Source: Catajapyx aquilonaris (Eukaryota). Taken from it: a stretch of DNA of 56,554 bases. Below, in pieces: positions 1 through 56,554 of this stretch; position 1 is the stretch's first letter; each line of letters starts with the position of its first letter. The stretch is from contig JYFJ02002468.1 in the NCBI GenBank assembly GCA_000934665.2, positions 1 to 56,554 on the forward strand. The letters are read 5' to 3'. The position numbers were made by a program, and so were the translations under genes. A model generated the notes under the pieces. The model made no database searches. It was not told the DNA's origin and worked only from the letters and a program-made list of their open reading frames with translations.

Positions 1-613
1 TAGGGTTCAATTGGATGTGGGTTTCACATATATTTAAAAAATAATAATCGAAGACCATGACTGGGCACCCTCCGTCTGGATTGAAATGGAACCAGCCATT
101 AGAGGATGTAAGTGGGGAGAAAGTTAGGGAGGGGGAAGAAGGAATGAGAGGTGGGGCAGGGAGAGACAGAGAGACAGGGGAAAGTGGAAAGGACAAGACA
201 GTATCTCTCGTTGTCTGTCTCCTACCCCACAAAAAATCGGTCCAGTTTTGGAGGGCCTTCTAAGCTACTTCTGGCATAGCTCTTGCTGTTCTCAGAGCAC
301 ATAATCTCTACCAGAACATCAAGGAGGAGATACAATTTGAAGGACGCAAGGTTATGCCATGTTAAGATGTCTAAGATCATTTAAATTGGGACGTAGATCC
401 TCCCTTCAACTTTGGGCTGACAAAATACATCACTGTAAGATAACTATAACTGTTAGTGTATTTTGACTGGTTTGTAATTAAAGCTGGTGCTGTGTCCCCC
501 TAAAAGGGCCATGCGCTGTTATGGAGTGTTTAAAAATAATAATAAAAAATGGTCATTTAAATTTATTTTAAAAAACCATTATGTTTCTTAAACAGCATGT
601 GTAATAGGCATAC

Positions 614-18100: not shown

Positions 18101-21100
18101 ATAAGAGGACGACAAATCCCTCAGAGAGAATTAAAGCCTTAGAAAACTTTGACGATTTGGAAGAAAGCATTGAGAACCAAGAGGAAAATGTCAGGAAGAA
18201 GCGAAGACTTCAGAAGATGCGTAGTTTCTATAAATGCAAGGCCATGCTAAAGTATAGTCATCTCGCTCTGGAGCAGCTGGATGACATGTAAATATGCAGT
18301 GGAATTTTGTCTTTTGCTAGGTCATAATATTTTCATTTCTTCTACAGTTTCAATGAGGCAATATATGTGGAGAAAGATCCACTGAAACTTGAAAGAGATT
18401 TAGCTGAGATGCAGTTACTTCCCTCCATGCAAATATATCCAGGAAAGAGGCTTCCCTATAAGCATCAACGCGTTCTCTTTGGTAATCTCAACATGCCTCT
18501 CAATGTCAATGAAGGACGTTTCAAGTTTCGCTTTGGTGACACAGAATATGGAAATGGCTACATACTGCAGGTTACCCTCTCTAAGTAAGTTTGTGAAGAG
18601 GAGTACCCTTCACAGGAGGCTAAGGAATAGACACCATCATTGTCCTGCATAAATTTATTGGAGAGAGTTTTGATGCCCTAAAACGCTGTTAATAGGGATG
18701 CTGGCGTGAATAGGGACGAAGGTTGCAAAAATGTATAGATTATGGAATTTTGCAAAATGGGAAGATATCAAAATAGGGTTTTTGCAGGAGTTAAAGAAAA
18801 TATTTTATGAGCTGCCATATAGCCTACATAGTTGTTTAAAAATTACACAGGCCTGCGAAATAACACTTTATTTTTTCTGCACAGTTTTCTGCGTTTTTAA
18901 TTTATTTCGATACGCTGAGTTCAGAAATGCCGAGCTTTTTCCTCTATCACGTCAGGGTTTTCCACAAAGTGAGGATAAAGATTCAGGAAAATCACACAGA
19001 AGAGTAGCCTATATCAGAGTAAAAAAGCCTTTGGTTCAGGCCTAGGTGGGGTTGAGTAGGTTTGAGAAAAAAATAGGTTACAAAGCCACGGTCACCTCCT
19101 TTAAGATGAAATAGATGGCATTAGTAGGTACTTACAGGTACTCGTGGAAAAAAATGTTTTCTATGCACCCACCCTACCGAGTGGTTCAGGTGTTGCCACA
19201 TTAGAGGTTATAAATCAAATTTTAACATGTTAACATTTTTCTACTTTCTATGTTTCAATTTATCGTCGTTGACCTGAAATATCTATTTTTCTAAGCTAAA
19301 TATTGGTTTGACACATTTTTATAGCAGCGCGCCCAGTATGTAGGCAGCCAGCCAGAAATTCTCGATTTGTGTCGAAACTGTACGTGATAGAAGTTTTTGC
19401 GTATTTTTCCCGAAATCAGCATCAAAAAATACATAGGAAACACCTCTCACTTTGAAGAAAAAATCTCACCGCAGGCTTGTGATATATATATTATAATCTA
19501 TATTATAATCTATTATTTTCTCGCGAACCATGCATGACCAAGGCCTCTAACTTAACATACTGAACCTTGTGTCAGTCACAACTAGTGCCACTAAATATGA
19601 CCGATGTAACGCAAAGACATCGCTAATTGTTGAGGTCACAATATATTCTTGGGCATGTGACTGAACAAGTGACCAATGAAATGCTATAAAAATTTATTTT
19701 TGCATTTTAGAGGAAAACTAATTCCAGCGACGCATTCTCCTGGTGTTTCTCTTCCTTCTGATGTATAATTATGTTCATTGGGTTCTGATCACTTCCACTA
19801 ACCGAAAATAATTCTCCCGAAAAGGCCTCATTTTCAGTCATTTGCAGATTTTTTTCCTCGTCATGGTATTGCGCAATATGGCGTAAATTTTATAAGCAGC
19901 ATTAAAGGAATAGTTGAGTACATCTGCGATTATTTTGACCAAGATCCGAGACGGTCTAGCAACATTTCGGCCACTGGATTCGGAAAGACCCCTAGTAAAT
20001 CGTTCAAAGTTTTGAAACGATATATCTCAAAAACTGTGGGTGATAGAAGATTTTGCGTATTTTTCCCGAAATCAGCATTATAAAATACATCAGAAACACC
20101 TCTCACATTCAAGAAAAAATCCATCGCAGGCCTGTGTTATTTATGTTTAGATTGGATCAGCTGTTATTTTGGCATCACATTTTAATGCAGTGGTTCTCCA
20201 TCTTTTTTCCTGATGAACCACTTTTCATGTTATGATGATTGAAGTACCACCAATACCTACAATTCCAAAGGAAAGCTGGAAAATAATTTAAAGACAGAAT
20301 AGTTTTATGTGAAAAACTATTTATTCCAAAATTGTTCCACATAATCACCTTCAAGCTTGCGTTCAAAGGGGATTTTCGGATTGATTCCAGACATTGAATA
20401 GCTAGGTTAACACCCTTGACATTGGATAGTGTATATGGGCCTTCATCAATCTTTCTCATTATTGCTTATCACTGGATAACACTTTCACATAACTTACCAC
20501 TGATGGTATGCATACCACAGATTGAAAACCACTGTTTTAATGGGATATTATTATTTAAAGTTAGATAAGCATTGTTGCTACTAATTTTATTGACATTAAG
20601 TGAATTTTAAATTGAATATAGCTATTTTGTGTTTAACCCTGCAGGAACCGTGTCGTGGGGTCTTTTTGGACCCCAAGGAATTAAAATGCATTAAAATGAT
20701 AATTACAATGAACTTTTGGCAATTTTTTTACAGTAGGCTATATAACAATAATGCATGTTTATTTTGCATTAGCGATCATCTTAGTCATTATTCAACGAAT
20801 GATTGTATATAGTCAATACATTGAAAAGTATTATATAAAAATTAATAAAATTTAAAGTATGGATGGGGTCCGAAAAGACCCCACGGCACGGTTGCTGTAG
20901 CCTATAACTTTCAGGCAAGGCACGGTTAAGTCAATTCTAGGCTAGAACTATAGCCTACGACACTGAGTATGTAATTTTTATAATGTAAATTAGAATAAAA
21001 TTAAGTAAGATAATAATTTTCAACTATTTTTGGCCGTTAAACATTTCTTAGAAACTAAAATTAAGTCTCAATTAACTACTGTTGTATGTTGAAAAGGTAA

Positions 21101-21722
21101 CTTATATTGAAAAAAACAGGTGTCCATATTCAGCCCACCTTTTTGTTTGTTTGTTTGTAGGCGTTTATTTATTCCAGGGTCGGTCTGCGGCTCGTGCCGC
21201 TTGGCCGACCCTCTACAAAAATTTTGTTGCGAACATAATACAATAATATAATACACTACTACACTAGAATACAGTACAATACTACAATACTATACATATC
21301 TTTCTTCTCCCTCGCTTCATCTCTTCCACCACACCTCCCCTGTCTGCCCGCTTCCCCTGTCCCTTTTTTTCTTTTTCTTCATCTTCCCTCGGTCCAGTCT
21401 ACACAACCCCCTCCCCTATCTTCTCCAAAACCTCGTCCTTTCTCTTTTTAACCAGACTGTGCAGGTATTTACATAGTGCCCCCCTTTTTTTAACATCATT
21501 CACATATTGGTAGACGTCGGCCCCACGCTTTTGTTCCACCCCCTGCAGCCAATCCGTCCTTTCCTTTTCCATCTCCCTGCAATCTCTGACTATGTGCTCC
21601 ATCGTCTCCCTTCCCTCTCCACACAATAGACAACTTCTGTCCTCCTCCTGCAGCCATGACCAGTTCCCTCTGTATATGGATCCAAATAAAATAAAATAAA
21701 ATAAAATAAATTAAAATAAATT

Positions 21723-21756
<34 letters not shown>

Positions 21757-24700
21757 CAGGCCTGCGATGAAATTTTTTTCTTGAAAGTGAGAGGTGTTTC
21801 GTATGTATTTTATAATGCTGATTTCGGGGAAAATACGCAAAATCTTCTATCACCCACAGTTTTTGAGATATATCGTTTTAAAACTTTGAACGATTTACTA
21901 GGGGGTCTTTCCGAATCAAGTGGCCGAAAGGTTGCTAGGAAGTTTATGTCTTTGTGGCACTAGTCCTATGCAATCCGAGCAATGTTTATTACTCTGAGAT
22001 AAAGGGGAGGTGTGGTAGCCAAGATGGTAACTTCTCGGGTTGCTGACGAGTGAAAGGTCCCAGGTTCGATCCCCGCCTTAGAGTTCCCTTTCACCTGCGT
22101 CAGGAGGGTCTCTGACCTGCACCTTGGAGGTGTCTGGCAACCTAACCTCCGGGGGGACTGCACATGGCCCAAACGTTTAAGACATTGCATCTGCACAAGT
22201 GTCTCCTCCCCAACAATCTCTATCCCAGGTACCCTACATCCTGAAGTCCTTGCACGGTGATTGAAGAAAAACAAGTTGGATAACTGATGGTGGTGTGCCA
22301 CTCCCCTAGCTATAACGACTTATAGTTGTATCACGGGGTAAAATAAATAATAAATAAGTAAATAAAAATATGGGGATATTGATTTGGAAATAATTAATTT
22401 TAATTAACTTTAATTAATTAATATGTACCGTCATATTATTATGTCCAACTGTCACTCTGGGACTCTTGCTCATCACATTGTCCAAACTACTCGTCTGTGG
22501 CAGTTTATTGAATATGCAGCTATATTTTGTGGCACAGATGATTGCAGAGAGGTGACAATAATGCCCTGCCTAACCAGGGTCCCGTCGAATTGTAATTTTA
22601 TTGAATTTTTAATTACAGAGAATTATAAATTTTAATTAATTGATTTGTATCATCATGGTGATTGAAGAAAAACAAGTTTGAAAACTGATGGTGGTGTGCC
22701 ACCCCCTATAACGACTTACAGTTGTATCACGGGGTAAATTAAATTTTAAACAAAAATTTTACTCTGAGATAATTCCACAATCGCACTTACCCTATATTGT
22801 GGGGCAATAAGTGCAGCACCGTGCACCACGTGCATATGTTAATTAATTTTTGGAGCACCCATATCGATTAATGTTATGCAATAGGCCACTTTGTAAGCCA
22901 ATAAGGTAAGGTATATTGTCCATTACTTTTTTTTCTCACTAGATAATTACTGAGGAAGTACACTAACATGCCTTTAAACTGCACCTAATCAGAATCCGTC
23001 CGCACTTACCCCAACTTACCCTTATTAATTTATTTTTAAATTATCGTGCCCGGGTACCCCACTACATCACTCCCTTTTGGCTATGCCATTTTAAAATAGT
23101 TCATGAAAATGAATGACATTATTCTGAACTTTGAACAAATTTGAGTATAAATGTTACTTGATATCAATTACTATTTTGCATACTGAAGGTATACAATATA
23201 CCACCAGTATTACAAAATCAATGCTACAACCTCCCATCATAGTAGAAGTGTGTAACTTTCTGCACTCATTTCACTCATATGTGCCCAAAATTCCGAAAAG
23301 CCAAACAAAAAAAGCAGAATCGAGGGGGGGGGGGGGGGGAACATTTGCTCATGCTGATGTAGCTGCATATAGATGGATTGATTCTGTACCTTGGGTCTTT
23401 CTTTGCTGAATAGTGTGACATACACCATTAATGCGATTCTGCTTACCCCAACTATTGCCTCCTTTGGGTCCCGGGACTCTCCTGTGCTTCTGAATGCACA
23501 AACTATGCCCTGGGGAAGTGCTAATAATAATGGCCCAGGACCAGGACTCTTGCCGAAGGGCAAATGGTGCAGAAGCAGGAGCTGCGAAACTCCGAGGACA
23601 GGATGGTGGGACCTCAGATGAAGCTCTGTAATCTCCACTTGTGGGTTTTCTGCACTACTGAGCATTTAATGACTTACATCATCTTCTTGCTGTCACCTTT
23701 TCTCTAATAATCATGAAAGCAGTTTTAGTGACACACAGCTTTTCATTTAACTCCATTGCATATCATTGACAATGGCCCAGGCTACAGGCTTCTGCCACCT
23801 TTTCAAAAATAAAAAAGTGAACTATCAAGATGCACTCTAACTTACACATTTTTAAAATCAAAATTTTCTACAGTAATGCACTGGTCGCATGTGGGATTAG
23901 CCTATAAACTGCAACTTTTACCATATTTGGGGTTGTCATTTTCCCAAAAGTCATTTGCAGTTTTCCTCACTAGTGTCACACACCAACAACAGAGAACAAG
24001 TATTCCTGCAGTAAATATCAACTGAGGTTTATAACCTATATAAGAGCATTTACATGAAAATCTTGAGATTGTTGACTCTGTCACTGGACTTGACCAATTC
24101 CCCTTAAGACCAACATAACATAGTGAAATCTTGTACCACTAACATGTGAGTTTCGCCATAGACCACATTTACATAATTATGAGTGATTCCATGAAACCAA
24201 TTATTGTTTGGGACAAATATAACAATTGCGTTTTGCTCCCAAACAATTGATCTAATTGCTCAGCTATGCTAATTGCTGCACATTGCTGATCAAATGGCTC
24301 ACATGTAAATGCGGCCTTATGTCTACTCCAACTATCTCCAGGGCATGTGTAATCCAGCTGATACCTATTAGTAGTTCAGACCCACCATTTACCTTTATCC
24401 CATCCCATACCCCAACTCAAATGCAATGTTCCCTCATGAAGAAACAATTGTCATATCATGAACAAGTTTACAGGATACCTGGTTTATACCATTAGCTCTT
24501 GTTTATACCCATGGCACAACAACTCTTTGTTCATCAGGGAACTATCATCCTCAGTTTTCACATTTGATTTGGGGTGTGGTTGTGAGATGGGAAAATAATT
24601 GCCACACGATATTGGCTGGACTAGAATAAATCGTTGTCATACAAGTGAAATCCACGAAGTCCAATTTTGGCAGTTTTGATAGTTGTATACACCACTAAGT

Positions 24701-27021
24701 AAATTTTTAATTCTCTATTGCCTGGTGAAGTCCATTTGGTCCTGAAGATTCATTATGGGCCAGCAAGCCAGGATTTTCTGTGATCACTAGCATGTAAACA
24801 AGTGCAAGGTCCAATCTTTGCCTTGCAGTTATCTCAAAACTGGTTTTTTGGATTTAGCGTGTGTCATGTATATGCTGACAAAACATACTGCAGATTAAGT
24901 GTGGTTAGTTTATATTTAATAATCATCAAGCTACTGATTTTCTTATCACATATTCCACTTCCGCCGTTAAAATTGTTTTCTTTTGGTGAAAGGAAGGGAG
25001 TGGTAGCCTTATCACATGCTTTAGAAATCAACCCTCAGGATATACATAGTATGAGGATAATGAGGATTCACTTAGACCTCCTCCTTTTGATGATGTAGGG
25101 GACAAAAGTCTGCAGGTCATTAGGTGAAACAGATATAACAGCATTGTATTGCATCATATCCACTTCACTTGGCACTCCATATATGCAACACCCAGGCAAC
25201 ACCTATATATGCCCTCTCTACAGCATCAGAAAGAGGTCTAGGTGTGGAATCTCCAGAAATCATTCCTACCTCAAGCTCCTTTACAACCCATGTATTCTGC
25301 CATTTCTGGAAGAGAGTGCTTTGTTGCTGCAACAAGACCTTACAAAGTGTGCTGATTATTTCTCTCCTTTTCAGTGACATTCCCACCAGTAGTATTGATG
25401 TGAACGTACATGATACGTATGTGCGAGTAATGGCAGAAGGTTGGATTCTGCAGCTGGCCCTGCCCTATCCCATAAACATCGACAAGGCAACCACTGAGAG
25501 GAATCAATTGACAAGTACCATGAAAATAACGATGCCGAAGGTAGGAACTTTTTGCAAGACTAAAAACTAGTGGCACCACATGCAAGTGCTAATTAAGGTG
25601 GTCTTGTTCTAAGGAGAATTATGAGTGAAACAAAGTTCTTTGAATGATACATTATTTCCTCTCTTGTTTTTATCCTCATCTGTCCCATCTATGTATCTTC
25701 TAACAGCCAGGTAGCCTTAGTTGGTTGGGCTCCTTCCCAATCAAACAACCATGATGAACAAAAATCCTGAAAATCCCACAAAACGTATACTCCTAATCTT
25801 GCCCTCCCTACTTGGCATGGAGGGTTTTCCAAACAACTCATATCCACCCAAACATACACTGAAAACCACAAATTTCACTACCGAGTCTCCCGCATTGAGC
25901 ATTAAAAATGTGTTATGCTCCATGGGAGACTCGGCAGTGATGCTTGCGGTTTTCAGTGTAGCCAACTGGAGAGTAATTAATTGGAATCTACTGTAAAGTT
26001 AAGATGGCATGACCTGTTGACAAGTGAATTAACTGTTCTGCCTAAGGACTAAAACTGGTTACCTACACAGTCAGTGCCAATAGGGTGGGCAAAAAAAGAG
26101 GAGTTGCAAAAACTCCCCAGGGGGTCACCACCGGACACAAATAGTGTAGATTTCAAGGAATAATTATGTCACCAAACCTTTCTTTTTTGAATGCCAAAGG
26201 CAACCTAAGGTGTGTGTGTGTGTGTGGCCATTTCTTTTGCCCAAAACCAAGCTGAAACTTCCGAGACCACATCAATGGAGCTGTGGCTCTGCTGAAATCC
26301 AAACTGCTACAGCCTTGCTGAACAGCTGGAGTATGACAATGTGCTTCCTCACCAATAACCACTTGCAGCAGCTTATTTGTTGATCCCTCCCAAAAAAATC
26401 CTACCCAAGTGCAGATGCCCACCACCTACTCATGTATGTGGCTTACCTGGTACCCTACACATGCAGGTGACTGGGCATGAAGAGGTTAACCTAGTGCAGG
26501 GTGAAAAGGGAAATCTTGTTGTGGCAAACATAATTTAAAAAGACCAATGTGATTCACATATGCAATGGTTTCGTTCTCTTCCTTCCTTCCTTTTTTTTAA
26601 AATCATTGTTTGAAAATCTTATTTTCAGATTGACACGAGACCAACAAAGATTGTCTACAAGATGAGCCCAGCTCAGAAGCAACTTTGCTACAAGTAAGCT
26701 ATAACTACTGCCTAGCACATAGCATGTACTATATCGCCCAAAAAGATAGAGACGATTTTGCATTTGACTCAAGTGCAACTTGCACTTGAATCAAATGCCT
26801 ATCGTCTCTATCTTTTTGAGCGATATAGTACTTCATGAGGTATATTGTAATCCCATAGGATGAAGCCCGTATACGAGACTCGCACCTTTGGTGAAGCTAC
26901 CAAGAGCTTCCTGAGCTTGCACATCATCCGCACAGAGGAAATGGAGCGAGCCACCTTCACCCAAATCATCCCAGATATAGGCACATCAAGCCTGTATCGT
27001 GGGCTGTATCGTGGACAATAA
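15158..27021 (+). CDS. DNAAF11: Divergent dynein axonemal assembly factor 11-like (LRRC6/tilB): LRRs + LRRcap + CS/p23-like domain, about 409 aa
   Basis: Exons (+): 15158-15167 (MQS), 17573-17716, 17787-17961 (IKYLDLSANNIDTIENL...LQHLDLGSNYI), 18018-18287 (LDLSGNPC...YVIAALPQL...SERIKAL), 18348-18584 (PLNVNEGRFKF), 25375-25540 (TSSIDVNVHDTYVRVMAEGWILQLALP...MKITMPK). Tentative phase-compatible last exons are 26629-26693 and 26859-27021; alternatively exon 6 reads through to the stop at 25570. The first and last two exons are less certain than the core. Confidence 0.82.
15555..17192 (+). mobile_element. About 1.3-kb non-autonomous TIR element, copy 1 (carries a SINE insert and an internal duplication of its 5' end at about 16195-16300)
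   Basis: TIR taacacaggcctgcga...tcgcaggcctgtgtta; near-identical inverted copy at 18843-20139. Confidence 0.85.
16609..16959 (+). mobile_element. tRNA-derived SINE, family C, nested in the TIR element
   Basis: A and B boxes (TGGTGCTGCGGT, GGTTCGATCCC); TSD ttgtaacctattttt at 16594-16608 and 16960-16974; absent from the inverted copy. Confidence 0.85.
17302..17552. mobile_element. MITE with about 33-bp TIRs, 20 nt upstream of a splice acceptor
   Basis: tgaaggggttagtgccataacgtgctaagccac vs gtggcttagcacgttatggcactagcccattca. Confidence 0.75.
18843..20139 (-). mobile_element. About 1.3-kb non-autonomous TIR element, copy 2 (inverted)
   Basis: Reverse complement of 15555-17192 without the SINE; same acacaggcctgcga termini. 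Confidence 0.85.
20637..20930. mobile_element. piggyBac-like MITE, copy 2
   Basis: Homologous to 9324-9577; starts TTAA-CCCTG. Confidence 0.8.
21140..21683 (-). mobile_element. 3' end of a non-LTR retrotransposon (LINE)
   Basis: CGEGRETMEHIVRDC zinc-knuckle-like ORF2 C-terminus, 3' UTR hairpin gggtcgg...ccgaccc, AATAAA and (CAAA)n tail. Confidence 0.7.
21752..21940 (+). mobile_element. Truncated third copy of the acacaggcctgcga element
   Basis: Matches 15556-15738; abuts a (CAA)n microsatellite. Confidence 0.8.
22003..22758 (+). mobile_element. Composite SINE, family B, with duplicated 3' end
   Basis: SINE 22004-22368; its 3' about 90 bp is repeated at 22657-22745; TSD ttactctgagataa at 21989-22002 and 22759-22772. 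Confidence 0.75.
26726..26831. repeat. 106-bp near-perfect palindrome
   Basis: gtactatatcgc.caaaaagatagagacgat...aagtgcaa-c-ttgcactt...atcgtctctatctttttg.gcgatatagtac. Confidence 0.85.
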
Positions 27022-34443: not shown

Positions 34444-35027
34444 TATAATGGAATGTAGCATTGAAACCTTCCCTTTTTGTTCTGTTCAATTGACTGTTGC
34501 AGTATGGCTGCTGGAGCTATGCTGCAGTTGCATATTGTTATATGGTAGTAAAATTCTCTTTAATAGCTTAACATAAAAAATTTCTATGCCTCACATGCTA
34601 CACAGGAAATAAATAATTCTAATTCAGATAAAAGAAGCTCCACACCAACATAAACCAAGGACTCGAGACAGCCATTTGTATGCGGACTTGGGTGACATTA
34701 CCAGGTCACATGTGAAACAAACTTCCTTCAACTAATCTCCTGTTACTGTATGAGAGACAAGCTGCAAATGCCTGTGACAAAGTCTCGCATGAGCGAAGCC
34801 CTGCCCCTCATTGGTAAAGAATGAGGTTTGAGAGTGAAGAGTGTCATGACCTAAAAGTATGATGAAGTATTGTCAGTTCTAGATTTCATAAGATTTTTTG
34901 CAATTAGTTACATGATGTAGACTGTTATATAGACTGTTGATCACACATTAAATATTGCCCCAGACACAACGCACAATATTTGTTTCTCATGTGACCAGGG
35001 CCTATGACTCCCATATATTTTGGAAGT

Positions 35028-35395
35028 GGGGAGGTGTGGTGGCCGTGATGGTAACGTCACGGCTTGCTGAGTGAAAGGCCCCAGGTTCGATCCCCGCCTG
35101 GGGAACTTTCCTTTCACCTGCGTCAGGAGGGTCTCTGACCTGCACCAAGGAGGTGTCTGGCAACCTAACCTCCTGGGGAACAGCACATGACCCATTAGCT
35201 ACGACATTGCACCTTGCACCCATGTTCCCTCCCCAAAAATCCCTACCCTTTCCCATTGTCCCTGTTTCCTTGCACCGGTGAATGAAGCAGAAAATATATA
35301 CAGAAAACTGACAGTGGTATGCCACCCCCCTATAGCACCCATAAGGGTCATCACAGGGTAAACTAAATAAAATAAATAAATAAAAATAATAATAA
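35028..35395 (+). mobile_element. Full-length tRNA-derived SINE, family B
   Basis: A box TGGCCGTGATGG, B box GGTTCGATCCC, (TAAA)n tail, TSD atattttggaagt at 35015-35027 and 35396-35408. Confidence 0.9.
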
Positions 35396-35537
35396 ATATT
35401 TTGGAAGTACTCCAGCATGCTAACAGTAAGTGTAACCACAGCCTAAGGGCCCCTGGTGGAGTACACACCAGGTCTGGCTTACTTAGGACTTTGTCTTGGA
35501 GGGGCTAAACCCACGGTTCTCAACCAGGTGTGTGTGT

Positions 35538-44320: not shown

Positions 44321-44695
44321 TTCCCTGGCGAGTAAGTCGCTGAATTTTGGGAATTTTTTAAATGGTTTTCAGCTGCACGTCCACTTACAGGGAAATATGC
44401 GGCAAGGAGCCACGTCTATTTAAATTCCTGGAGTAAGTGTTTGTTGAAAATGAACGAGACCTTTGGCCTATAATGTCATACCATTTACAATATCACGTGG
44501 GTTGTGTAAATACTCATGAACATATACTACAAACATTTCCTAGGGCTATGGTAAAGAAATTTCCATTGGGGTTATACCAGTGAATTTAAACAAAATTATT
44601 TTGTTACTTGCATTATAATGCAACCAACACGGCCGCGGGAGACAAAGGGTTAATATAATCTGAATGTGTCCCTAATGAATACACCGCTCTTCCAG

Positions 44696-45707
44696 ATCCT
44701 TTCTTAGCACAAGGCTATCCTGCAGGTGGTGGTGCACCTCCACCAGCAGGCTTTACCCAGCCTCCTCCATATCCAGGACCTGCTGCACCTTATCCAGCAC
44801 CTGGTGGATATCCACCTTCAGGAGGAGCCTACCCTGGCAACACAAGCTATCCTTCTGGTCCCTACCCACCAACTGACTTCAGTGCTGCTCGAGTAATTGG
44901 AGGGCCTGATCCACAAGCCATGTACGGTAGTGCATATGGAGATGAGCCCCTCACCGGGGAGGCTGCCACAAATTTTGCTGATTTCAATGAGAAAAGCATT
45001 CGCATGGGATTCATCAGGTTGGGCTAACAAATTTACATCTCAACATTGCAGATTGTAACCTCTCTTTGTTTTACAGGAAGGTGTACAGCATCCTGTCAGT
45101 GCAACTTCTCATCACATTTGGCTTCATCATGCTGTTTACCTTCGTAGAACCTGTCAGGAGATTTTCTTACCAAAATCCAGCCGTCTTTTACGTTGCAATT
45201 GCCCTGACCTTCGTGTGCATCATCACACTGGCTTGCTGCCCCAATGTGCGCCGAAAGACCCCAACCAACTTCATCGTCCTATTTATCTTTACACTGGCTG
45301 AGAGTTTCCTGCTGGGTGTGACTGCATCCAGGTATGGCTCAGATGTGGTGATGATGGCTGTTGGCGCTACTGTAGCAGTGTGCCTGGCACTCACCCTTTT
45401 TGCCATGCAAACCAAATGGGACTTCACGATGATGGGAGGTGCCCTACTGGTCTGCCTTGTGGTGTTTGTCATCTTTGGTATTGTGGCAGCCTTCTTCCCA
45501 GGCAAAACGCTGCGACTGGTGTACGCCTCTCTGGGGGCCATCCTCTTCTCTCTGTATCTCATCTATGACACTCAGCTCATGATGGGAGGAAAGCATAAGT
45601 ATTCCATCTCACCTGAGGAGTACATTTTTGCAGCTCTTAATCTCTACCTGGACATTGTAAACATCTTCATCTACCTCCTCACCATCATTGGCTCCAGTCG
45701 AGACTAA
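44696..45707 (+). CDS. GRINA: Protein lifeguard / TMBIM family (GRINA/Nmda1-like) multi-pass membrane protein; start-codon exon lies upstream and is not fixed
   Basis: Exon 44696-45017 encodes a Pro/Gly/Tyr-rich N-terminus ending EKSIRMGFIR. Exon 45077-45707 encodes KVYSILSVQL...FAMQTKWDFT...YDTQLMMGGKHKYSISPEEYIFAALNLYLDIVNIF-stop (Bax inhibitor-1 fold). A phase-compatible candidate first coding exon is 41533-41581 (MVFICTFCKKKPLQDS), unverified. Exact orthology within TMBIM1-3 is uncertain. Confidence 0.92.
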
Positions 45708-48846: not shown

Positions 48847-49462
48847 CACAGTTAAAGGATTTCCTAACCACATGAGGCAGAGAAATTAACCTCCAACAGA
48901 GGTGCTAGCTAGGGGAGTGCCAGTCATTGCATCAGGGGGAGGCAGCACCTCTGTTGCAGGCTAATATCTCTGCCTCGTCATGTGGTAAGGAAATTCTTTA
49001 ACCCTGGAACCGTGCCGTGGGGTCTTTTTGGACCCCAAGGAAAAAAATGCATCAAAATGATCATTACAATGAACTTTTGCCATTTTTTTACAGTATATAA
49101 CAGGAAGTGCAGGTTCATTTTGAATTAGCAATCATTTCAGGCATTGTTCAAAGAATGATTGTATATAGTCAATACATTGAAAAGTATTATATAATAATTA
49201 ATAAAAATTAAAATATGGTGGGGTCCGAAATGACCCCACGGCACGGTTCCCGTAATACTCGTAGGCACGGCACGGTTCCAGAGTTAGACGGGCCATGTGC
49301 AGTCCCCGAGGAGGTTATATTGCCAGACACCTCCAAGGCGCGGGTCAGAGACCCTCCTGATGTAGGAAAAAGGGAGCACCCAGGCGGGGATCGAACCTGG
49401 GACCTTTCACTCAGCAAGCTGAGACATAGTTACGTTACCATCTTGGCCACTGCACCTCCCCC
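48847..49462. mobile_element. Nested cluster: hairpin MITE (48847-49001), piggyBac-like MITE (49002-49285), SINE B head (49290-49462, - strand)
   Basis: Each part matches other copies in the window; the piggyBac-like MITE starts at the TTAA inside the first MITE's TIR. Confidence 0.8.
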
Positions 49463-50401: not shown

Positions 50402-50654
50402 TACTTTACACCCTTTCTTAACTTAACCTCCTAAAGTGAATGGATGTACAGCGATGCAGTTATTTAAATAAATACCAGCTACAGTGCTATACACCATCCT
50501 ATTATCAACTGCTGTAATCCACTAATAATAGAGATCGAAAAATTCACTCTTAATGACAATGTCACATCGATAACTAAGGGACTGACTACGTCCGGAAGTG
50601 TGACGGGAATTGATCCAAACCATGACCAAACATTGATATTTCTGCATGTGTAAC
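50402..50654. repeat. About 250-bp direct repeat, copy 1
   Basis: Highly similar to 52606-52851. Confidence 0.8.
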
Positions 50655-51295
50655 CCACTTTGACATTCTCCGATGTCTATAATTTAGAATATTTCACGTA
50701 AAATAGGGTAGCATTCCCATCAAACAGCTGCAAAGTCAGTCTTGACATAGCTCATGGGTAGCAAACAAGTCTCACAACTGCACAGTGCACATCCCACATA
50801 CAAATCCCTATGAATCTTTGACTGAAAATTAATGCCCCCCCCCCCCCACCNCACCCCTAAAATATAAAATCAAACAAATTACATAAAGCACTGCAGATGT
50901 CTCCCCCAGAGCCACCATGCCCTGTCCCAATGTTTTTGCACAACTGCACCAATAAGTGAATTTTGTTCTGCAGTTGGGGAGTGGGAGAGGATGTTAGTAA
51001 CACTACACATCAGAAATTACTAGTCCTGTATATGATTTCAAAATGCCACTTTCAGCAGAGTTTTTTTTACTGGTTGCCTCCACTTATTGTAACACTTCAG
51101 AAATTTATTTTTTAAAACTAGTTTTGCTCTGACAGTAGGATGCAAAGAATAAATCCCATACTCTCAACAATTCAACTTTTTAGTTTACTTTTCAAAAGGA
51201 ACACAACACGTACACACACCCACCCACATACCCACACACACACACACACAGTCCTGCGCCCCATATGGGCGTCCATGAGGTCGCTTCGAAAATCT

Positions 51296-54165
51296 TCAAC
51301 CTCCATATTGAGGGTCGTAAACCTCGACGACATCATTATTCAGTAAGTTTAGCGAGCCAGGTGTCTCCGTCATCTTTATCCTGTCCCCGTCATACAGGAA
51401 TCGAACTTCCTTCCAGGGTATCCCCTGTAAATTGATCGCATCATGAGCTCATCATTGAAAATATTCTAATTCTATGCAATGCTGAGGCAAGCTAAATGCT
51501 ACTGCAAAATCCTCCTGTCCAGTAGAAATCGCTGCCAGAAAAGGAGGCTTACATGGGACAAATCAAGGATGAAGTTTATAAGAAACACTCCATGGGAAAA
51601 TGATAAGTCAAGATCAGAAGTATTTTTTATGGTACTTACATGAAAAAAATAGTAAAACTGCAAAACTAGTCACACATTCTTGAGACTATGTTGTTGGAGT
51701 GTTATGAATTTTCCTAACAAAAAAAAAATCATGCTACCTACTACGGGACGTAATACGGTAGTATTAAAGATCTTAAGATCGTTCCATGGAATTGGTCATT
51801 TAAAAAAAGTGATGCACATTTTTACAGTTACTTATAATAACTTATTATGGATAATCATTTTACATTTGGAAGCATTGGAGCCTATTCATATGTTATGGAA
51901 GTAATTACATGTTTTACACCACTTCATTTTACCCTGATTCACAATAACGTCAGTCTCAAAATTACCTTTGGAAATTTGTTTAATAGGATAATTTTGCAAT
52001 TTTTTAAACAATCTAAATATATAAGAATAGCACTGTAACACTTCTGAGTCCAAACACACAACTGTATAACTGCTTCTTTTGGTTTTTGTGATGCAGTGTG
52101 GCATGGTGATATGTGAATAATATACAATAGCAGACAATAGGCATACTGTATTATTGGTCTCTGCCCTCCCCGAACTACTCTGACGGTCCAAGGGAAAAAC
52201 CCCGTATCTTGGAAAATCACATAAATGGAGATAAATGCGCGCCACCATTGCACTCCTCTTTGCAAGCCACACCTTTTTATACAAAGCTCATAACTGTAGG
52301 CGCAACCCTTGCAAAGTTTTGGCCAATTGAAATCATGAACTTCCACATACGATAATGGAAACAAAAAACTTCACACGTAAATATCTCGAAATGGCAAAAA
52401 GCCGAAATACAGGGTTTTCACTTGGGCCGTCAGTACTGTACCCATTATTACATTTCACTACTTGTACTGCAGTTTTTGCCAAAGAAAGGAAAGGGACACT
52501 CAGAACTCAACAACCCTCAACATGGAACCTCCCATATTACATGTGTGCATTAAATGTTTCAAATGCTCAGCACGATTCAAAACAGCAATAACAGCATCTA
52601 ATAGCTACTTTATACCCTCTCCTAACCTAACGTCCTAAAGTGAATGGGTGTATACAGGGATGCAGTTATTTAAATAAATACCAGCTACACTATCCTATTA
52701 TCCCCTGTTGGAATCCACTAATAATAGAGATCCAAAAATTCACTCTTAATGACAATGTAACATCTGTAACTAAGGGACTGACTACCTCCGGAAGTGTGAT
52801 GGGAATTGATCCAAACCATGAACAAATATTGATATTGCTGCATGTGTAACCTATCTCATTTACGGACCCTATAATTTTTTCTCGTTTTAAGTTGATTCAC
52901 TTTACACCACTGCACTGCGTTGCTGGAACCAATTATACTGGCATAAAACGGATACTTTCTGTACAACTAAAGTATAGGCCCCTACACCTGATTTATATCA
53001 ACACCAGATTAAGCCAATGTGAGTTCTAAGATAGTACTGTATACATGTTATAAAGGGGCCCTACATTTTATAAGTGAGCATCAATTATTTACTTGCAGAG
53101 TACAGTGATTAAATTTTTGCATTTGTCACATAGTCAGATAACGGGATAAACGTCTGACACTTCAGTAATACAGGTATTACATACATGTAGGTATCAAGTT
53201 CAAAAATGTGAAGAGTAGGAAAATTGCAATAATTATAAAAGTCACACTGAAGAGCTCCCATGCAAAAGCAGTTAGATCCAAACCGACCTCCAATCCATGA
53301 TTTTCAAAAATTATATTTAAAAATGCAGAAAAATACCATCTCATGACTCCCATCATAAATAATCACTTTCAGCTTGAAAGCGTTTCCATATCTTTTAATC
53401 CTTTTCAGTGATGAAAATGAGTGTTCTCCACTGAGTTTATTGGCGACCGTGAGTGACAAATATATTGATGGGTGAGGCATTTTCTACATAATTTTGGAAA
53501 ACAAGATTCCAAGGAATTGCATATTATCAAATGGTACAATTATAACTCTGCAAGATCTTGTTTGGCATGTGAGGGCAATGTGATAAGTAAGATCAGTTTT
53601 TAAAAGTTCATTAAATTGCACAAATTCTTCGCCAGTTTATTCAGGTGTAAACAACTGTAACTAATGAAGGAATCCATTATCCAAACACACAATTCACATT
53701 TTGATAAGCTTTCTGATGTTTTGACAGAGCAGAAAGCAAGCTGTGAATAATGAATAAAAGAAATATTCAGGATTTAAAATAATATCTGAGAAAAGGCGTT
53801 TGAGATTCAACATGTGAATCAAGAGTCCTGGAACAACTGAAATCATCATAGCCCATATGCACGGTTTCTCTTGTGTTGAGTGACCAACTGCATGGGCCTT
53901 GGCCCATACCCAAAAGTACAGAGTACATGCAAAAACCTTTGAAGTAAATCAAACCATGCTAAAATATCTGCATTAACCATTAGTTCTAAAGCATGATGCT
54001 AGCAAATGTGAAAATGCAATAGGAAATCAGAAAAAAATCAGTGGAAATACTGACCATGAGATGACAAAAAGCACGCCTTAGTGCCGACATCGGCTTTGCC
54101 GGATGGATTCTAAATCGGACCTGATGTCCATTTTGGGCCAGAACAGTGATTTTGATCATAGGTGC
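51296..54165 (-). CDS. Divergent SUMO-like ubiquitin-fold protein (about 77-80 aa)
   Basis: Exon 54165-54055 (APMIKITVLAQNGHQVRFRIHPAKPMSALRRAFCHLM) splices in phase 0 to exon 51424-51296 (GIPWKEVRFLYDGDRIKMTETPGSLNLLNNDVVEVYDPQYGG-stop). It aligns without gaps by eye to SUMO (IKLKVIGQD..IHFKVK.....KLK..YC...GVP...RFLFEG.RI....TP..L....DVIEVY..QTGG). An AATAAA lies at 51109-51104 on the - strand. Confidence 0.85.
52177..52438. mobile_element. Old Tc1-like MITE
   Basis: ctgacggtccaagggaaaaaccccgtat vs atacagggttttcacttgggccgtcagtactg-TA. Confidence 0.55.
52606..52851. repeat. About 250-bp direct repeat, copy 2
   Basis: cctaaagtgaatgg...aattgatccaaaccatga...ctgcatgtgtaacc, shared with 50402-50654. 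Confidence 0.8.
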
Positions 54166-54611
54166 CTGTAACGGGAAAAATCCAATATCAGTGGAAGTAA
54201 TATGAACGGAATATAATTATGCAGTGATGAGCAAATAAATGCGAGTGGACATCAACAAAAAGTACCGTAATCAGAAAACATACGTATTAATGAACCACAA
54301 TCATAAATAAAAATAAATTCGTATATGAGGGGCGTTTTTAATGTATGGAGTATTTCCATGAAGGTATTTTCTATTAGATATGAAAATTAGTCACCATGCA
54401 GAAGCATTCCTGCCCCGATTACAGGATATTTCATCATCCTCAAATGAAGCAAATGAAAGGGTGGAAAAAATCAATACAAAATTGCAAAATTGTTGCAAAA
54501 AATTGCAAAGTTGTCCACACGTGAAAAAGTGCAGTGAGTCGTCACCATGGCCAGTTTGGAGGATCGTTCTGTCAGCAAATATCTCACTCTGAAGAAGACG
54601 AGTGGTGCAGA

Positions 54612-54614
<3 letters not shown>

Positions 54615-54660
<46 letters not shown>
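54615..54660. repeat. (GAT)n microsatellite
   Basis: About 15 perfect tga/gat units. Confidence 0.95.
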
Positions 54661-54662
<2 letters not shown>

Positions 54663-54963
54663 TAATAGTAATATAATAATAATGACATGCCAGAGACACT
54701 GCCACACTGGGGTGTGATTGTCCATCATACCCAAGAGCTAAGTGTTAAGAGATGGGTTGCACGCTTCAAAGCCTAATAGGTGACCCTCACCCTGGAAGGC
54801 CTGCAATATATTGCTGTGAAGGAGGAAATTGACATGGTAATGGGAGACAGGTGGTTGACAGTGTGGTACATATAGCAGAGGTCATGGGCATCAGTTTGGC
54901 TTTGAGTTGAGCTGTCACAGGCCAACTTGGAATTTTTCTGCAACAAGGCTGACTATTTTACTC

Positions 54964-55545
54964 ACAAGGGAAGGTCACGGGGTGATAATGACGGATCTTG
55001 ATGAAATTTAACATGCTAATACAGGACAATATATGATACCCAAAAATGAAATATTTTGTGCGGAGGCCCATATTTGCAAAAGTTATGACGTCTTAAAGTT
55101 CCAATAATAATACATTTTCATTCATAATGGGATTACATTAGCGACCACATATAATGACATTGAAGTGTGTAATCAGTTTCTACACTTTTTCTCATCGGAA
55201 AAAAGTCCTACATAACGGCTCTGTATCTCTTACGGTTTAGGCCTTGATACCTGTCCACAGACGGACGGACGGACAGAGCCGTTATGTTCCTTCCGTTTTT
55301 TCCTATGAGACAAAGTGTAGAAACTGATTACACACTTCAATGTCATTATATGTGGTCGCTAATGTAATCCCATTATGAATGAAAATGTATTATTATTGGA
55401 ACTTTAAGACGTCATAACTTTTGCAAATATGGGCCTCCGCACGAAATATTTCATTTTTGGGTAGGCTATCATAATTATATTGTCCTGTATAAGCATGTTA
55501 AATTTCATCAAGATCCGTCATTATCACCCTGTGACCTTCCCTTGT
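54964..55545. mobile_element. Near-perfect 580-bp foldback element
   Basis: acaagggaaggtcac...catttt arm of about 250 bp is almost exactly inverted at 55275-55545; the spacer contains (GGAC)n. Confidence 0.85.
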
Positions 55546-56266
55546 CAGTTAGTGATTAAAAATGAAACTTTATGACTTCTCTTATTCCAAATATTTTTTT
55601 AAAAACCAACGTTGGGGAAGGGTCCTAAAGTGATTGCAGATGTGAAGGTGTTGGGTGGGGTTAATTCTTAAACAATATTTTGGGACCTGCTATAAAAATA
55701 TGGGAGAAATACATCTGGACAATGTGTTACTGTATCAACATGCAAGGGTACTATGTTGAAAAATAAAATATTTATGTTTGCCTGCCTGTTCTCTTCATAG
55801 AAAACCTCATTACTTTCCAAATGCCCCTTGTACAGGCTACAAGAAAACTGGACTTGGCCTGTATATACCTGGTCCACTATTTGGTGGCGCCAGCCTGCAA
55901 ACACACACATGTCATCTGATTGCATACCAATTAAATCAAGATGAAGCAGTTATATTGGCACCATAATGCCAATCAAAAAATCGAATATGTTGGCATGAAG
56001 TCAGCTGATGGGGTAATGTATACAGCAAGAAGTAAGAAAACCAAATATGTTCTTAAGTTAGACAACAACTATTTGGTTGCTAGGGACATAATTTCCAATC
56101 TTCCTGACATATCTGACTTCAATGTCAGCATGGAAGAATTCATTTGGTGGTTTACTCAGATTGTTTTGTTTGCCAAAGTCTTCATCCATGCTTCTGATCA
56201 ACAGGATTGGCAATATACCGTACTGTTTTTAGGAACCACAATAATAAGAGGACTAATATAATATAT

Positions 56267-56554
56267 GGGGGAGGTGTGGTGGCCGTGATGGTAACGTCTC
56301 GGCTTGCTGAGTGAATGGTCCCAGGTTCGATCCCCGCCTGAGAGTTCCCTTTTACCTGCGTCGGGAGGGTCTCTGACCTGCACCAAAGGAGGTGTCTGGC
56401 AACCTAACCTCCTGGGGGACTGCACATGGCCCAAAGACTGGACAATGCACCTGCACAAAGTGTCCCCTCCCCAACAATCCCTTTCCCTTCCCTATATCCT
56501 GAACAAATCCTTGCATGGAGATCGAAGAAAAAATTGAAAACATGGTGGTGATCC
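56267..56554 (+). mobile_element. tRNA-derived SINE, family B (runs off the window)
   Basis: Matches 35028-35330. Confidence 0.85.

What the first reader, a model, noticed from the sequence alone, without database searches (positions are those of the whole stretch)
51296..54165. Hidden, highly divergent SUMO-like modifier ending QYGG-stop
Seen: two short exons absent from the ORF track splice in frame (GT-AG, phase 0) into (AP)MIKITVLAQNGHQVRFRIHPAKPMSALRRAFCHLM|GIPWKEVRFLYDGDRIKMTETPGSLNLLNNDVVEVYDPQYGG*. Known: canonical SUMOs are very conserved, end QTGG (usually followed by a propeptide), have a disordered N-terminal tail and an acidic EEED patch, and SUMO1 has an intron at this same position before GVP. 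Here the fold-determining residues and di-Gly are kept. The SIM-binding groove lysines and the acidic patch are replaced, Thr becomes Tyr, there is no propeptide, and there may be almost no N-terminal tail (ATG at 54159, or ATG|GT at 54397-54395). Inference: a lineage-specific, protease-independent, conjugation-ready SUMO paralog that may have different readers and resist SENP cleavage.
Basis: partly seen in the sequence, partly recalled or inferred. Interest (0 to 1): 0.8.

Follow-up and report, generated by a model that had tools for sequence, protein, structure and literature searches.

The report
Divergent SUMO-like gene ending Gly-Gly-stop
Two short exons in this arthropod-type genome encode a complete but very divergent SUMO-type protein tag that ends exactly at the two glycines used for attachment; it looks like a preserved extra copy of SUMO, but whether it is expressed, stands alone or is attached to other proteins is still unshown.

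Summary
On the minus strand, 54165-54055 and 51424-51299 (TGA at 51298-51296) join GT-AG in phase 0. Together they form one gapless SUMO/Rad60-SLD domain ending QYGG-stop. Of 2,512 six-frame ORFs in the window, only these two hit a SUMO profile, and the spliced product scores 89.9 bits.

It is 29 of 77 identical to an arthropod SUMO1-type protein and at most 34 of 77 to any domain retrieved. No closer relative turned up among 1.8 billion representatives.

Neutral decay to this divergence would rarely keep the frame, the GG and the stop together (0.25-1.1% of simulations). It would also not keep 25 of 26 hydrophobic positions. The fold has therefore been under selection.

The central loop and the tail determinants are kept. 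Two of the most conserved SIM-groove basic residues and the acidic patch are replaced (PMC5319795).

No RNA data, whole genome or orthologue was available. The N-terminus, expression and conjugation all remain untested. Only 2.4 kb lies upstream, so it could be the last domain of a larger SUMO-like protein.

Earlier notes of this scan, unchecked here, report several other SUMO-derived genes elsewhere in this genome. Interest is modest.

The parts
54055..54165 (-). Exon A: 37 codons (AP, then Met at 54159-54157, then strand 1 to the end of helix 1 of the SUMO fold)
   Evidence: Translation. Pfam Rad60-SLD profile positions 1-32, E 0.013. SUMO2/3 chains, gapless, E 0.007-0.04. Own SUMO HMM E 3.6e-5, one of only two hits among 2,512 ORFs.
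54157..54159 (-). Candidate start codon, which would give a 77-residue protein with no N-terminal tail
   Evidence: Read directly. It is the only ATG in this frame between the upstream stop and the fold. The context CCTATGA is weak. Untested.
54166..54190 (-). Pyrimidine-rich acceptor (tttttcccgttacAG) directly before exon A. It implies an upstream exon, coding or 5'UTR.
   Evidence: Inference only.
54395..54397 (-). Spliced to exon A it would give M-AP-M...
   Evidence: Sequence read. Of the three frames at this donor, only this one stays open into exon A. Several out-of-frame ATGs lie just upstream. Untested.
51425..54054 (-). Intron of 2,630 nt (GT...AG, phase 0), 35.5% GC, carrying high-copy repeats
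   Evidence: Repeat depth of about 1,000-2,000 against about 30 for unique DNA at 52210-52470. Direct repeat 52686-52851 is 92% identical to 50490-50655.
51299..51424 (-). Exon B: 42 codons, from the loop after helix 1 to the C-terminal QYGG
   Evidence: Translation. Pfam Rad60-SLD positions 36-71, E 2e-5, 24.8 bits against a 23.8-bit cut-off. SUMO1 chains, gapless, E about 1e-6. Own HMM E 7.3e-17.
51296..51298 (-). TGA stop directly after Gly-Gly (no propeptide)
51104..51109 (-). AATAAA, beginning 187 nt after the stop. It is the only AATAAA/ATTAAA in the 1.5 kb downstream and a candidate poly(A) signal.
   Evidence: Weak evidence, because about one such hexamer per kb is expected in DNA this AT-rich.

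Best explanation
This is a real, lineage-restricted, fast-diverged duplicate of a SUMO gene, most like the arthropod SUMO1 type. It is kept as a two-exon coding unit.

Shown:
- The exons encode one complete SUMO beta-grasp domain.
- The hydrophobic core is intact.
- The central RFLYDG.RI loop and the tail determinants (Arg, Glu, Gln, Gly-Gly, which contact E1, E2 and Ulp/SENP in Smt3) are intact.
- The stop codon falls directly after Gly-Gly.
- This pattern of conservation is not what neutral decay gives.

Inferred:
- The product is most likely a small stand-alone protein of 77-79 residues, starting at the ATG at 54159 or one exon upstream.
- Because it is made already 'mature', the ordinary SUMO E1 (Aos1/Uba2) and Ubc9 could load it without protease processing.
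- Its SIM groove has lost two conserved basic residues, and the acidic patch that touches the back of Ubc9 is gone. Once attached, or as a free protein, it would therefore be read differently from ordinary SUMO.

My odds:
- Coding unit shaped by selection: about 0.85.
- Stand-alone small protein: about 0.5.
- Actually conjugated: about 0.35.
For: Domain and join: with a gapless single-domain alignment at 89.9 bits.

Selection on the fold:
- 25 of 26 hydrophobic positions of an arthropod SUMO1-type protein (P0088) stay hydrophobic, although only 29 of 77 residues are identical.
- In 5,000 neutral simulations run to the same identity the mean was 16.6 (SD 2.3), and 0.02% of runs (1 in 5,000) reached 25.
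- The frame stayed open in 7%, GG was kept in 17% and the stop in 37%. All three held in 0.4%.
- Four other starting sequences gave 0.25-1.1% for all three, and 0-3.5% for the hydrophobic count (000 runs each).

Conserved columns: 13 of the 16 columns with consensus frequency of at least 0.75 are matched, including R43, F44, D47, G48, R50, T56, P57, L60, D66, Q74, G76 and G77.

Mapped on the Smt3 table of PMC5319795 (passages read):
- Core: 8 of 16 identical, plus 7 hydrophobic swaps.
- Ulp contacts: 10 of 18 identical.
- E1 contacts: 5 of 9 identical (R71, E90, Q95, G97, G98).
- Sites of lethal single substitutions F65, Y67, R71 and G98 are all kept.

Composition: coding GC is 48% against 35.5% in the intron, and an AATAAA lies 187 nt after the stop.

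Copy number: exon A lies on a contig of unique-copy depth with no second contig at 88% likeness or more.

Placement: the tree puts it inside the SUMO1-type arthropod-like group.
Against: - No expression evidence of any kind could be obtained.
- No orthologue or close paralogue was found. The word search gave 0 scoring hits of 5 candidates. Among 108 hits from 1.8 billion representatives, the best single-stretch hits reach at most 57% identity to exon B. Conservation across species is therefore unshown, and recent loss of function cannot be excluded.
- Exon A starts at a good phase-0 acceptor only 6 nt before the ATG, and the ATG context is weak. The exon may be internal to a larger coding sequence, and only 2.4 kb of upstream DNA is in the window.
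- The replaced residues include equivalents of Smt3 R47 and R55, where R47E and R55A are lethal in yeast. E94, an E1 and Ulp contact, is Pro here. D61 is Lys here, and D61R is a conditional mutant in yeast (PMC5319795). Loading by E1 or use by E3s may be impaired.
- Tree support for its placement is not strong (81/62, 86/76, 83/78). Its branch is long (1.18), and its neighbours are other long branches.
- The simulations ignore indels and assume a canonical ancestor taken from another species.
Confidence: 0.45

Rival explanations
1. The two exons are the last SUMO-like domain of a larger protein whose earlier exons lie beyond the window end. That protein would be either a head-to-tail SUMO-like concatemer or a RENi-type (Rad60/Esc2/NIP45) or other multi-domain protein. 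The Met at 54159 would then be an internal residue, and the GG-stop simply the protein's end.
For: - Exon A begins at a strong phase-0 acceptor, and the frame is open across it.
- The window holds only 2.4 kb upstream, less than the 2.6 kb intron inside the domain itself.
- Many of the best database hits are multi-domain SUMO repeats, some ending exactly at GG.
- Earlier notes of this scan, unchecked here, describe three-domain and tandem SUMO-like genes elsewhere in this genome, one of them with seven exons for three domains.
Against: - No other SUMO-like ORF exists anywhere in the window on either strand.
- No credible Pfam domain was found in any of 67 ORFs of 55 aa or more between 45.8 and 56.5 kb.
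- The upstream 2.4 kb is mostly repeats: an inverted-repeat element at 54960-55549, a SINE-like copy at 56296-56384 and a CAT microsatellite.
- A Met sits exactly one residue before strand 1, as in ubiquitin.
- The concatemers noted earlier in this genome were reported to lack di-Gly, whereas this domain keeps it in register.
Confidence: 0.3
2. It is a SUMO-like protein that is expressed but never conjugated. It would act non-covalently as a SUMO look-alike or decoy, as SUMO-like domains of Rad60/Esc2 do, or as proposed for non-conjugated human SUMO4.
For: - E1- and E3-relevant positions are changed: E94 to Pro, D61 to Lys, and R47 and R55 lost (table in PMC5319795).
- In this genome SUMO-like genes without di-Gly seem common (unchecked).
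Against: - Gly-Gly and the stop directly after it are kept, together with the Arg, Glu and Gln tail determinants. A purely non-covalent protein has no need of them.
- GG survived in only 15-22% of neutral simulations.
- The acidic patch that SUMO-like domains use to bind the back of Ubc9 is the part that is lost.
Confidence: 0.15
3. It is a dead or dying duplicate: an unexpressed relic that merely has not yet picked up a disabling mutation.
For: - It is an orphan with no orthologue.
- It lies in repeat-rich DNA.
- The start context is weak and the exon B polypyrimidine tract is modest.
- Singleton divergent SUMO-like predictions are scattered in other invertebrates and look like gene birth-and-death.
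Against: - Divergence this deep with an intact frame, both splice pairs, GG, the stop and 25 of 26 hydrophobic positions is very unlikely under neutral change.
- Any death would therefore have to be recent, after a long period as a working gene.
Confidence: 0.1

Closest known systems
Arthropod SUMO1-type proteins (for example the retrieved P0088, P0083 and P0080; SUMO1 of hemimetabolous insects as described in PMC4866545)
   Same: - The same domain, aligned without gaps over 77 residues.
- The same G.P...RFL.DG.RI...ETP...DV.EVY..Q.GG framework.
- The tree places the window protein within this group.
   Different: - Only 29 of 77 residues are identical.
- No N-terminal tail is visible and there is no C-terminal propeptide.
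- The SIM-groove Lys residues at columns 19 and 26 are replaced, and the acidic E.E patch becomes N.L.
- Net charge is +3 against -1.
[quoted passage not shown] A third, divergent one is not mentioned in the passages I read.
Diversified plant SUMO paralogues: Arabidopsis SUMO5 and the grass GSUL2/DSUL locus (PMC6680281, passages read)
   Same: Lineage-specific, fast-evolving SUMO duplicates. Some keep the di-Gly and can still be conjugated (AtSUMO5, at a reduced rate). They sit beside relatives that lost it or fused into concatemers.
   Different: - A different kingdom and an independent origin.
- The plant cases have expression and, for some, conjugation data. This one has none.
- Here the stop falls directly after GG.
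Orphan divergent SUMO-like predictions in other invertebrates: P0089 (unnamed, 34 of 77 identical), P0052 (Oppiella nova, mite), P0096 (Coptotermes formosanus Cfor_02749), P0068 and P0092
   Same: - Single SUMO domains with GG, long branches and altered surfaces.
- P0052 and P0092 share Pro at the fifth position from the end.
- P0089 shares the NND motif and R/K-I-K after the DG loop.
   Different: - Identity is no higher than to canonical SUMO (31-34 of 77 for those compared by ungapped identity, against 29).
- Grouping support is weak and may be long-branch attraction.
- They carry N-terminal tails and mostly short propeptides.
- P0089 has no relatives of its own.
Human SUMO4 (recalled knowledge; the papers were only listed, not read)
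   Same: A SUMO paralogue with a Pro near the C-terminal tail, which is said to block maturation by SENPs. Whether it is conjugated is debated.
   Different: - The Pro here lies one residue further from GG than the recalled Pro90 of SUMO4.
- No maturation is needed here, because the gene ends at GG.
- SUMO4 is intronless, whereas this gene has an intron.

Membership tests
SUMO / Smt3 family (conjugatable small ubiquitin-related modifiers) | SUMO-type beta-grasp domain recognised by family profiles | tested here: met
   - Pfam Rad60-SLD: exon B scores 24.8 bits (cut-off 23.8); exon A scores 15.8 bits, collinear with it.
- Own SUMO HMM on the spliced product: 89.9 bits, E 1.3e-26, one gapless domain.
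- PDB hits are SUMO1, SUMO2/3 and Smt3 chains.
SUMO / Smt3 family (conjugatable small ubiquitin-related modifiers) | Gly-Gly at the canonical C-terminal register | tested here: met
   The protein ends QYGG, aligned end to end with the QTGG of SUMO1/2 chains and the GG of Smt3. GG was present at this register in 114 of 120 comparison domains.
SUMO / Smt3 family (conjugatable small ubiquitin-related modifiers) | Precursor with a C-terminal extension removed by Ulp/SENP (usual, not strictly defining) | tested here: not met
   TGA follows GG directly.
SUMO / Smt3 family (conjugatable small ubiquitin-related modifiers) | Residues that contact E1 and Ulp/SENP (Smt3 table of PMC5319795) | tested here: inconclusive
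   - E1 contacts: 5 of 9 identical (R71, E90, Q95, G97, G98). S32, D61, H92 and E94 differ, with E94 to Pro.
- Ulp contacts: 10 of 18 identical, including R64, L66, Y67, D68, G69 and R71.
- The register for exon B comes from the gapless 1euv_B alignment.
- The register for exon A is my inference from matching letters (I24, V28, F37, I39, L48, A51, F52).
SUMO / Smt3 family (conjugatable small ubiquitin-related modifiers) | SIM-binding groove with conserved basic rim | tested here: not met
   - The hydrophobic floor is kept (V, F, I, L, A).
- Columns 19 (K in 77% of rows) and 26 (K in 77%) are H and A, and column 34 (R in 61%) is L.
- These correspond to Smt3 K40, R47 and R55.
- Of the 11 listed SIM contacts, 4 are identical.
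SUMO / Smt3 family (conjugatable small ubiquitin-related modifiers) | Flexible N-terminal tail | tested here: inconclusive
   Only AP precedes the Met before strand 1. No upstream coding exon was found in the 2.4 kb available, and the true 5' end is unknown.
SUMO / Smt3 family (conjugatable small ubiquitin-related modifiers) | Activation by Aos1/Uba2, transfer to Ubc9 and attachment to lysines | not testable with these tools
   This needs biochemistry. No complex prediction was run, because no E1 or E2 sequence of this organism was available.
RENi family (Rad60 / Esc2 / NIP45) | Two tandem SUMO-like domains at the C-terminus of a larger protein | tested here: inconclusive
   No second SUMO-like ORF is present anywhere in the window, but only 2.4 kb lies upstream of exon A.
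RENi family (Rad60 / Esc2 / NIP45) | Last SUMO-like domain lacking a conjugatable di-Gly (recalled feature) | tested here: not met
   The domain ends GG-stop in the SUMO register.
SUMO-like concatemers (DSUL/GSUL2-type; poly-SUMO-like genes) | Several SUMO-like domains joined head to tail in one reading frame | tested here: inconclusive
   There is one domain only in the window. The phase-0 acceptor before exon A would allow an upstream domain outside the window.

The most novel reading that the evidence does not exclude
The animal makes a genetically 'pre-matured', tail-less third SUMO. The ordinary SUMO E1 and Ubc9 attach it, but canonical SIM readers see it poorly and SENPs remove it poorly. 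It would be an orthogonal, long-lived SUMO mark, and part of a lineage-specific expansion of the SUMO system. That expansion also includes SUMO-like concatemers and an extra PIAS ligase, which this scan noted elsewhere in the genome (not checked here).
Probability: 0.12. Interest if true: 0.7.

Novelty: new member of a known kind. Interest (0 to 1): 0.35.

Why it matters
SUMO is among the most conserved proteins of animals. The arthropod paper I read (PMC4866545, passages only) describes just two types in insects, SUMO1 and SUMO3.

A third copy at 38% identity that still keeps the attachment end and the enzyme-contact loop, but has rebuilt its reader surfaces, would be a natural experiment. 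It would help separate which parts of SUMO serve conjugation and which serve recognition. If expressed, it could mark a separate signalling channel.

A practical point follows from the Tyr before Gly-Gly (inference): chymotrypsin should leave a di-Gly remnant on modified lysines, which would make its targets easy to map.

As it stands, this is one more unexpressed-until-shown, orphan SUMO-like gene. Similar diversification is already known in plants and is visible as unstudied predictions in mites, termites and nematodes.

Tried and rejected
- Whole genome: none is held for this window. Upstream exons, paralogues and the organism's canonical SUMO could not be examined.
- Sequencing runs: no RNA holder is listed.
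- Laying contigs of three runs gave nothing on expression or splicing. Run X5, of unknown kind, touched only the repeats. No joint at 54055/51424 was seen. The bins over exon B (51293-51423) had no cover in any run, which proves nothing.
- Close relatives: the word-index search with exon B, longer proteins, gave 5 candidates and none scoring. phmmer of exon B against 1.8 billion representatives gave 108 hits, none closer than ordinary SUMOs.
- The nearest domain, P0089, has no relatives of its own: 1 hit, itself.
- Earlier-findings look-up by sequence found 0 windows, and look-up by place near this region found nothing.
Folding half-domains would be meaningless.
- Complex prediction was not used, because no E1, E2 or SENP of this organism was available.
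- dN/dS could not be computed without a relative's DNA.
- Transposon capture was rejected. The inverted 89-nt arms at 49337-49425 and 56296-56384 that bracket the locus are copies of a SINE-like element also seen elsewhere in the window, not terminal repeats of one element.
- A retrocopy was rejected, because the gene has an intron inside the domain.
- Literature searches (86 papers, 15 listed; 14 papers, 14 listed) showed no title on a third, divergent SUMO in crustaceans or other arthropods. This rests on listings only.
Full report
**What is there**

On the minus strand, 54165-54055 translates to 37 residues: AP, then Met, then a stretch that reads like strand 1 to helix 1 of a SUMO. 51424-51299 translates to 42 residues ending QYGG, followed at once by TGA at 51298-51296.

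The first block is preceded by tttttcccgttacAG and followed by GTCAGT. The second is preceded by caatttacAG. The join is phase 0 and removes 2,630 nt.

**Is it more than chance**

- Pfam's Rad60-SLD model matches the first block at profile positions 1-32 (E 0.013). It matches the second at 36-71 (E 2e-5, above the gathering score).
- Against solved structures, the second block aligns without gaps to SUMO1 (about 1e-6), SUMO2 and Smt3. The first aligns without gaps to SUMO2/3 (0.007-0.04).
- I built an HMM from 18 retrieved single-domain SUMOs and ran it over all 2,512 six-frame ORFs of at least 15 residues in the 56.5 kb window. Only the two ORFs holding these blocks scored (7.3e-17 and 3.6e-5), and the next best was 0.84.
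- The two partial alignments meet exactly at HMM positions 57 and 58. The spliced product aligns as one gapless domain at 89.9 bits.
- The 18 sequences had been selected through likeness to the second block, so the first block is the independent test.
- DNA contigs from two runs reproduce 52660-54606 without a difference.

**Setting**

The window is ordinary animal nuclear DNA. It carries:
- exons of a uridine-cytidine kinase-like gene with a UPRTase domain (563-916 and 3808-4152, minus strand);
- a DNAAF11-type CS-domain exon (25139-25570, plus strand);
- a Bax-inhibitor/TMBIM gene (44991-45707, plus strand).

Earlier notes of this scan call the genome arthropod-like.

The SUMO-like unit lies tail to tail with the TMBIM gene, in repeat-rich DNA. 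None of 67 ORFs of 55 residues or more between 45.8 and 56.5 kb has a credible Pfam match; two matches were at chance level. No second SUMO-like ORF exists in the window.

**How divergent, and related to what**

- The word-index search found nothing (5 candidates, none scoring).
- A full phmmer pass of the second block over 1.8 billion cluster representatives found 108 proteins. The top scores are multi-domain SUMO repeats. Single-stretch hits reach at most 57% identity to that block and are ordinary SUMOs.
- Over the whole 77-residue domain, identity is 29 of 77 to an arthropod SUMO1-type protein (P0088). The maximum is 34 of 77, to P0089, an unnamed orphan.
- A maximum-likelihood tree of 30 domains puts the window protein inside the SUMO1-type arthropod-like group. 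It sits next to other long-branch, divergent sequences: P0089, P0052 from the mite Oppiella nova, P0068 and P0092.
- Support for this placement is 81/62, 86/76 and 83/78, none of it strong, and its own branch length is 1.18. The grouping may be long-branch attraction.
- A divergent termite protein (P0096, Coptotermes formosanus) falls on the SUMO2/3 side instead.
[quoted passage not shown] The window gene would be an extra, SUMO1-derived copy. Earlier notes of the scan say an ordinary SUMO gene exists elsewhere in this genome (unchecked).

**Selection or decay**

I simulated neutral point mutation of a coding sequence for P0088 until amino-acid identity fell to the observed 29 of 77.

| Feature kept | Share of 5,000 runs |
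|---|---|
| Open frame | 7% |
| Gly-Gly | 17% |
| Stop in place | 37% |
| All three | 0.4% |

Hydrophobic positions that stayed hydrophobic averaged 16.6 of 26 (SD 2.3). The observed number is 25, and only 0.02% of runs (1 in 5,000) reached it.

Four other starting sequences were tried: a SUMO2 chain, a cnidarian SUMO1-like protein, P0089 and P0096. They gave 0.25-1.1% for the three features together, and 0-3.5% for the hydrophobic count (000 runs each).

Indels were not modelled, which makes the test conservative for the frame. The ancestor is assumed, which is a weakness.

Coding GC is 48% against 35.5% in the intron.

I conclude that the unit evolved as a protein-coding gene for most of its history. 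I cannot show that it is still active.

**What is kept and what is changed**

Against 114 aligned SUMO domains, 16 columns have a consensus frequency of at least 0.75, and the window protein matches 13 of them. The three departures are:
- Ile to Val at column 68;
- Lys to His at column 19;
- Lys to Ala at column 26.

I mapped the protein onto the Smt3 interaction table in PMC5319795 (passages read; its supplements were not seen).
- The register for the second block comes from the gapless alignment to chain 1euv_B.
- The register for the first block is my inference from matching letters at I24, V28, F37, I39, L48, A51 and F52.

| Smt3 surface | Identical | Notes |
|---|---|---|
| Core | 8 of 16 | 7 more are hydrophobic swaps |
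| Ulp contacts | 10 of 18 | Includes the whole R64-L66-Y67-D68-G69 loop and R71 |
| E1 contacts | 5 of 9 | R71, E90, Q95, G97, G98 kept; E94 is Pro and D61 is Lys |
| SIM contacts | 4 of 11 | K40, R47 and R55 equivalents become H, A and L; K38 becomes R |

The acidic run that faces the back of Ubc9 (Smt3 D82 and E84) reads N and L, while D87 and E90 are kept.

At the tail, the residue before GG is the most variable in the family: T 34, L 17, I 17, V 16, Q 12, F 3 and W 1 of 114. Tyr there is new in this set but not radical. Pro at the fifth position from the end occurs in 4 of 114 domains.

**Reading**

The enzyme-facing loop and tail look like those of a SUMO that can still be activated and handled.

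The gene ends at Gly-Gly, so no protease step would be needed. My best explanation is a stand-alone, SUMO1-derived extra modifier with altered recognition.

This is inference from sequence. The changed E94, D61, R47 and R55 positions could equally mean poor loading or poor E3 use.

**The open end**

Exon A begins at a strong acceptor only six bases before the Met, and the frame is open through it. There are three possibilities:
- an upstream non-coding exon is spliced on, and translation starts at 54159;
- upstream coding exons lie beyond the window.

The third possibility is serious, for three reasons.
- The window stops 2.4 kb upstream.
- Many database relatives are SUMO repeats.

I give the third possibility about 0.3.

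**Comparison with the known**

It works like, and by profile belongs to, the SUMO family. It fails the usual precursor feature and the conserved basic rim of the SIM groove. Conjugation itself cannot be tested here.

The closest described parallels are the diversified plant paralogues: AtSUMO5, which is still conjugated, and the GSUL2/DSUL cluster (PMC6680281, passages read). Human SUMO4 is a further parallel, recalled only, since the papers were merely listed.

Similar orphan predictions exist in a mite, a termite and nematodes.

**Verdict**

This is a real and neatly preserved but orphan SUMO-like coding unit, a new member of the known class of lineage-specific SUMO paralogues. Its functional claims are untested and partly overstated. 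Interest is modest until a transcript and the 5' end are shown.

Noticed in passing
window 563-916 (-) and 3808-4152 (-): Exons of a uridine-cytidine kinase-like gene: Pfam UPRTase (E 8.8e-9) and PRK/uridine kinase (E 1.1e-24).
   Followed up: partly
window 25139-25570 (+), perhaps with 17929-18291 (+): Exon with a DNAAF11-type CS domain (Pfam CS_DNAAF11_C, E 1.3e-13), probably a dynein assembly factor 11 / LRRC6-like gene. The 17929-18291 ORF had no Pfam hit.
   Followed up: partly
window 44659-45707 (+): Bax-inhibitor/TMBIM-type gene. One long ORF holds the whole Bax1-I domain (E 1.3e-44). It is preceded by an overlapping ORF, in another frame, rich in Pro, Gly and Tyr.
   Followed up: partly
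window 52210-52470 (inside the intron): High-copy repeat. Summed contig depth is about 1,000-2,000 against about 25-30 for the unique flanks, with many variant contigs.
   Followed up: no
window 50490-50655 and 52686-52851: Direct repeat of 166 nt at 92% identity. One copy lies downstream of the gene and one inside its intron, probably copies of a dispersed element.
   Followed up: no
window 54960-55549: Nested inverted repeats (arms of 168 nt at 98% and 74 nt at 96% complementarity). This MITE-like or foldback element sits 0.8 kb upstream of exon A.
   Followed up: no
window 49337-49425 and 56296-56384; similar translations at 7357-7728, 21966-22319 and 35002-35442: Copies of a SINE-like element in both orientations across the window. 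Two inverted copies happen to bracket the SUMO-like locus.
   Followed up: no
window 54607-54687 and 51207-51258: A (CAT)n microsatellite upstream of exon A, which reads as poly-His, poly-Ile or poly-Ser in the three frames, and a (TG)n run in the presumed 3' UTR.
   Followed up: no
window 21399-21710 (-): ORF with a weak zf-RVT match (E 8.4e-4, below the cut-off), probably a retroelement fragment.
   Followed up: no
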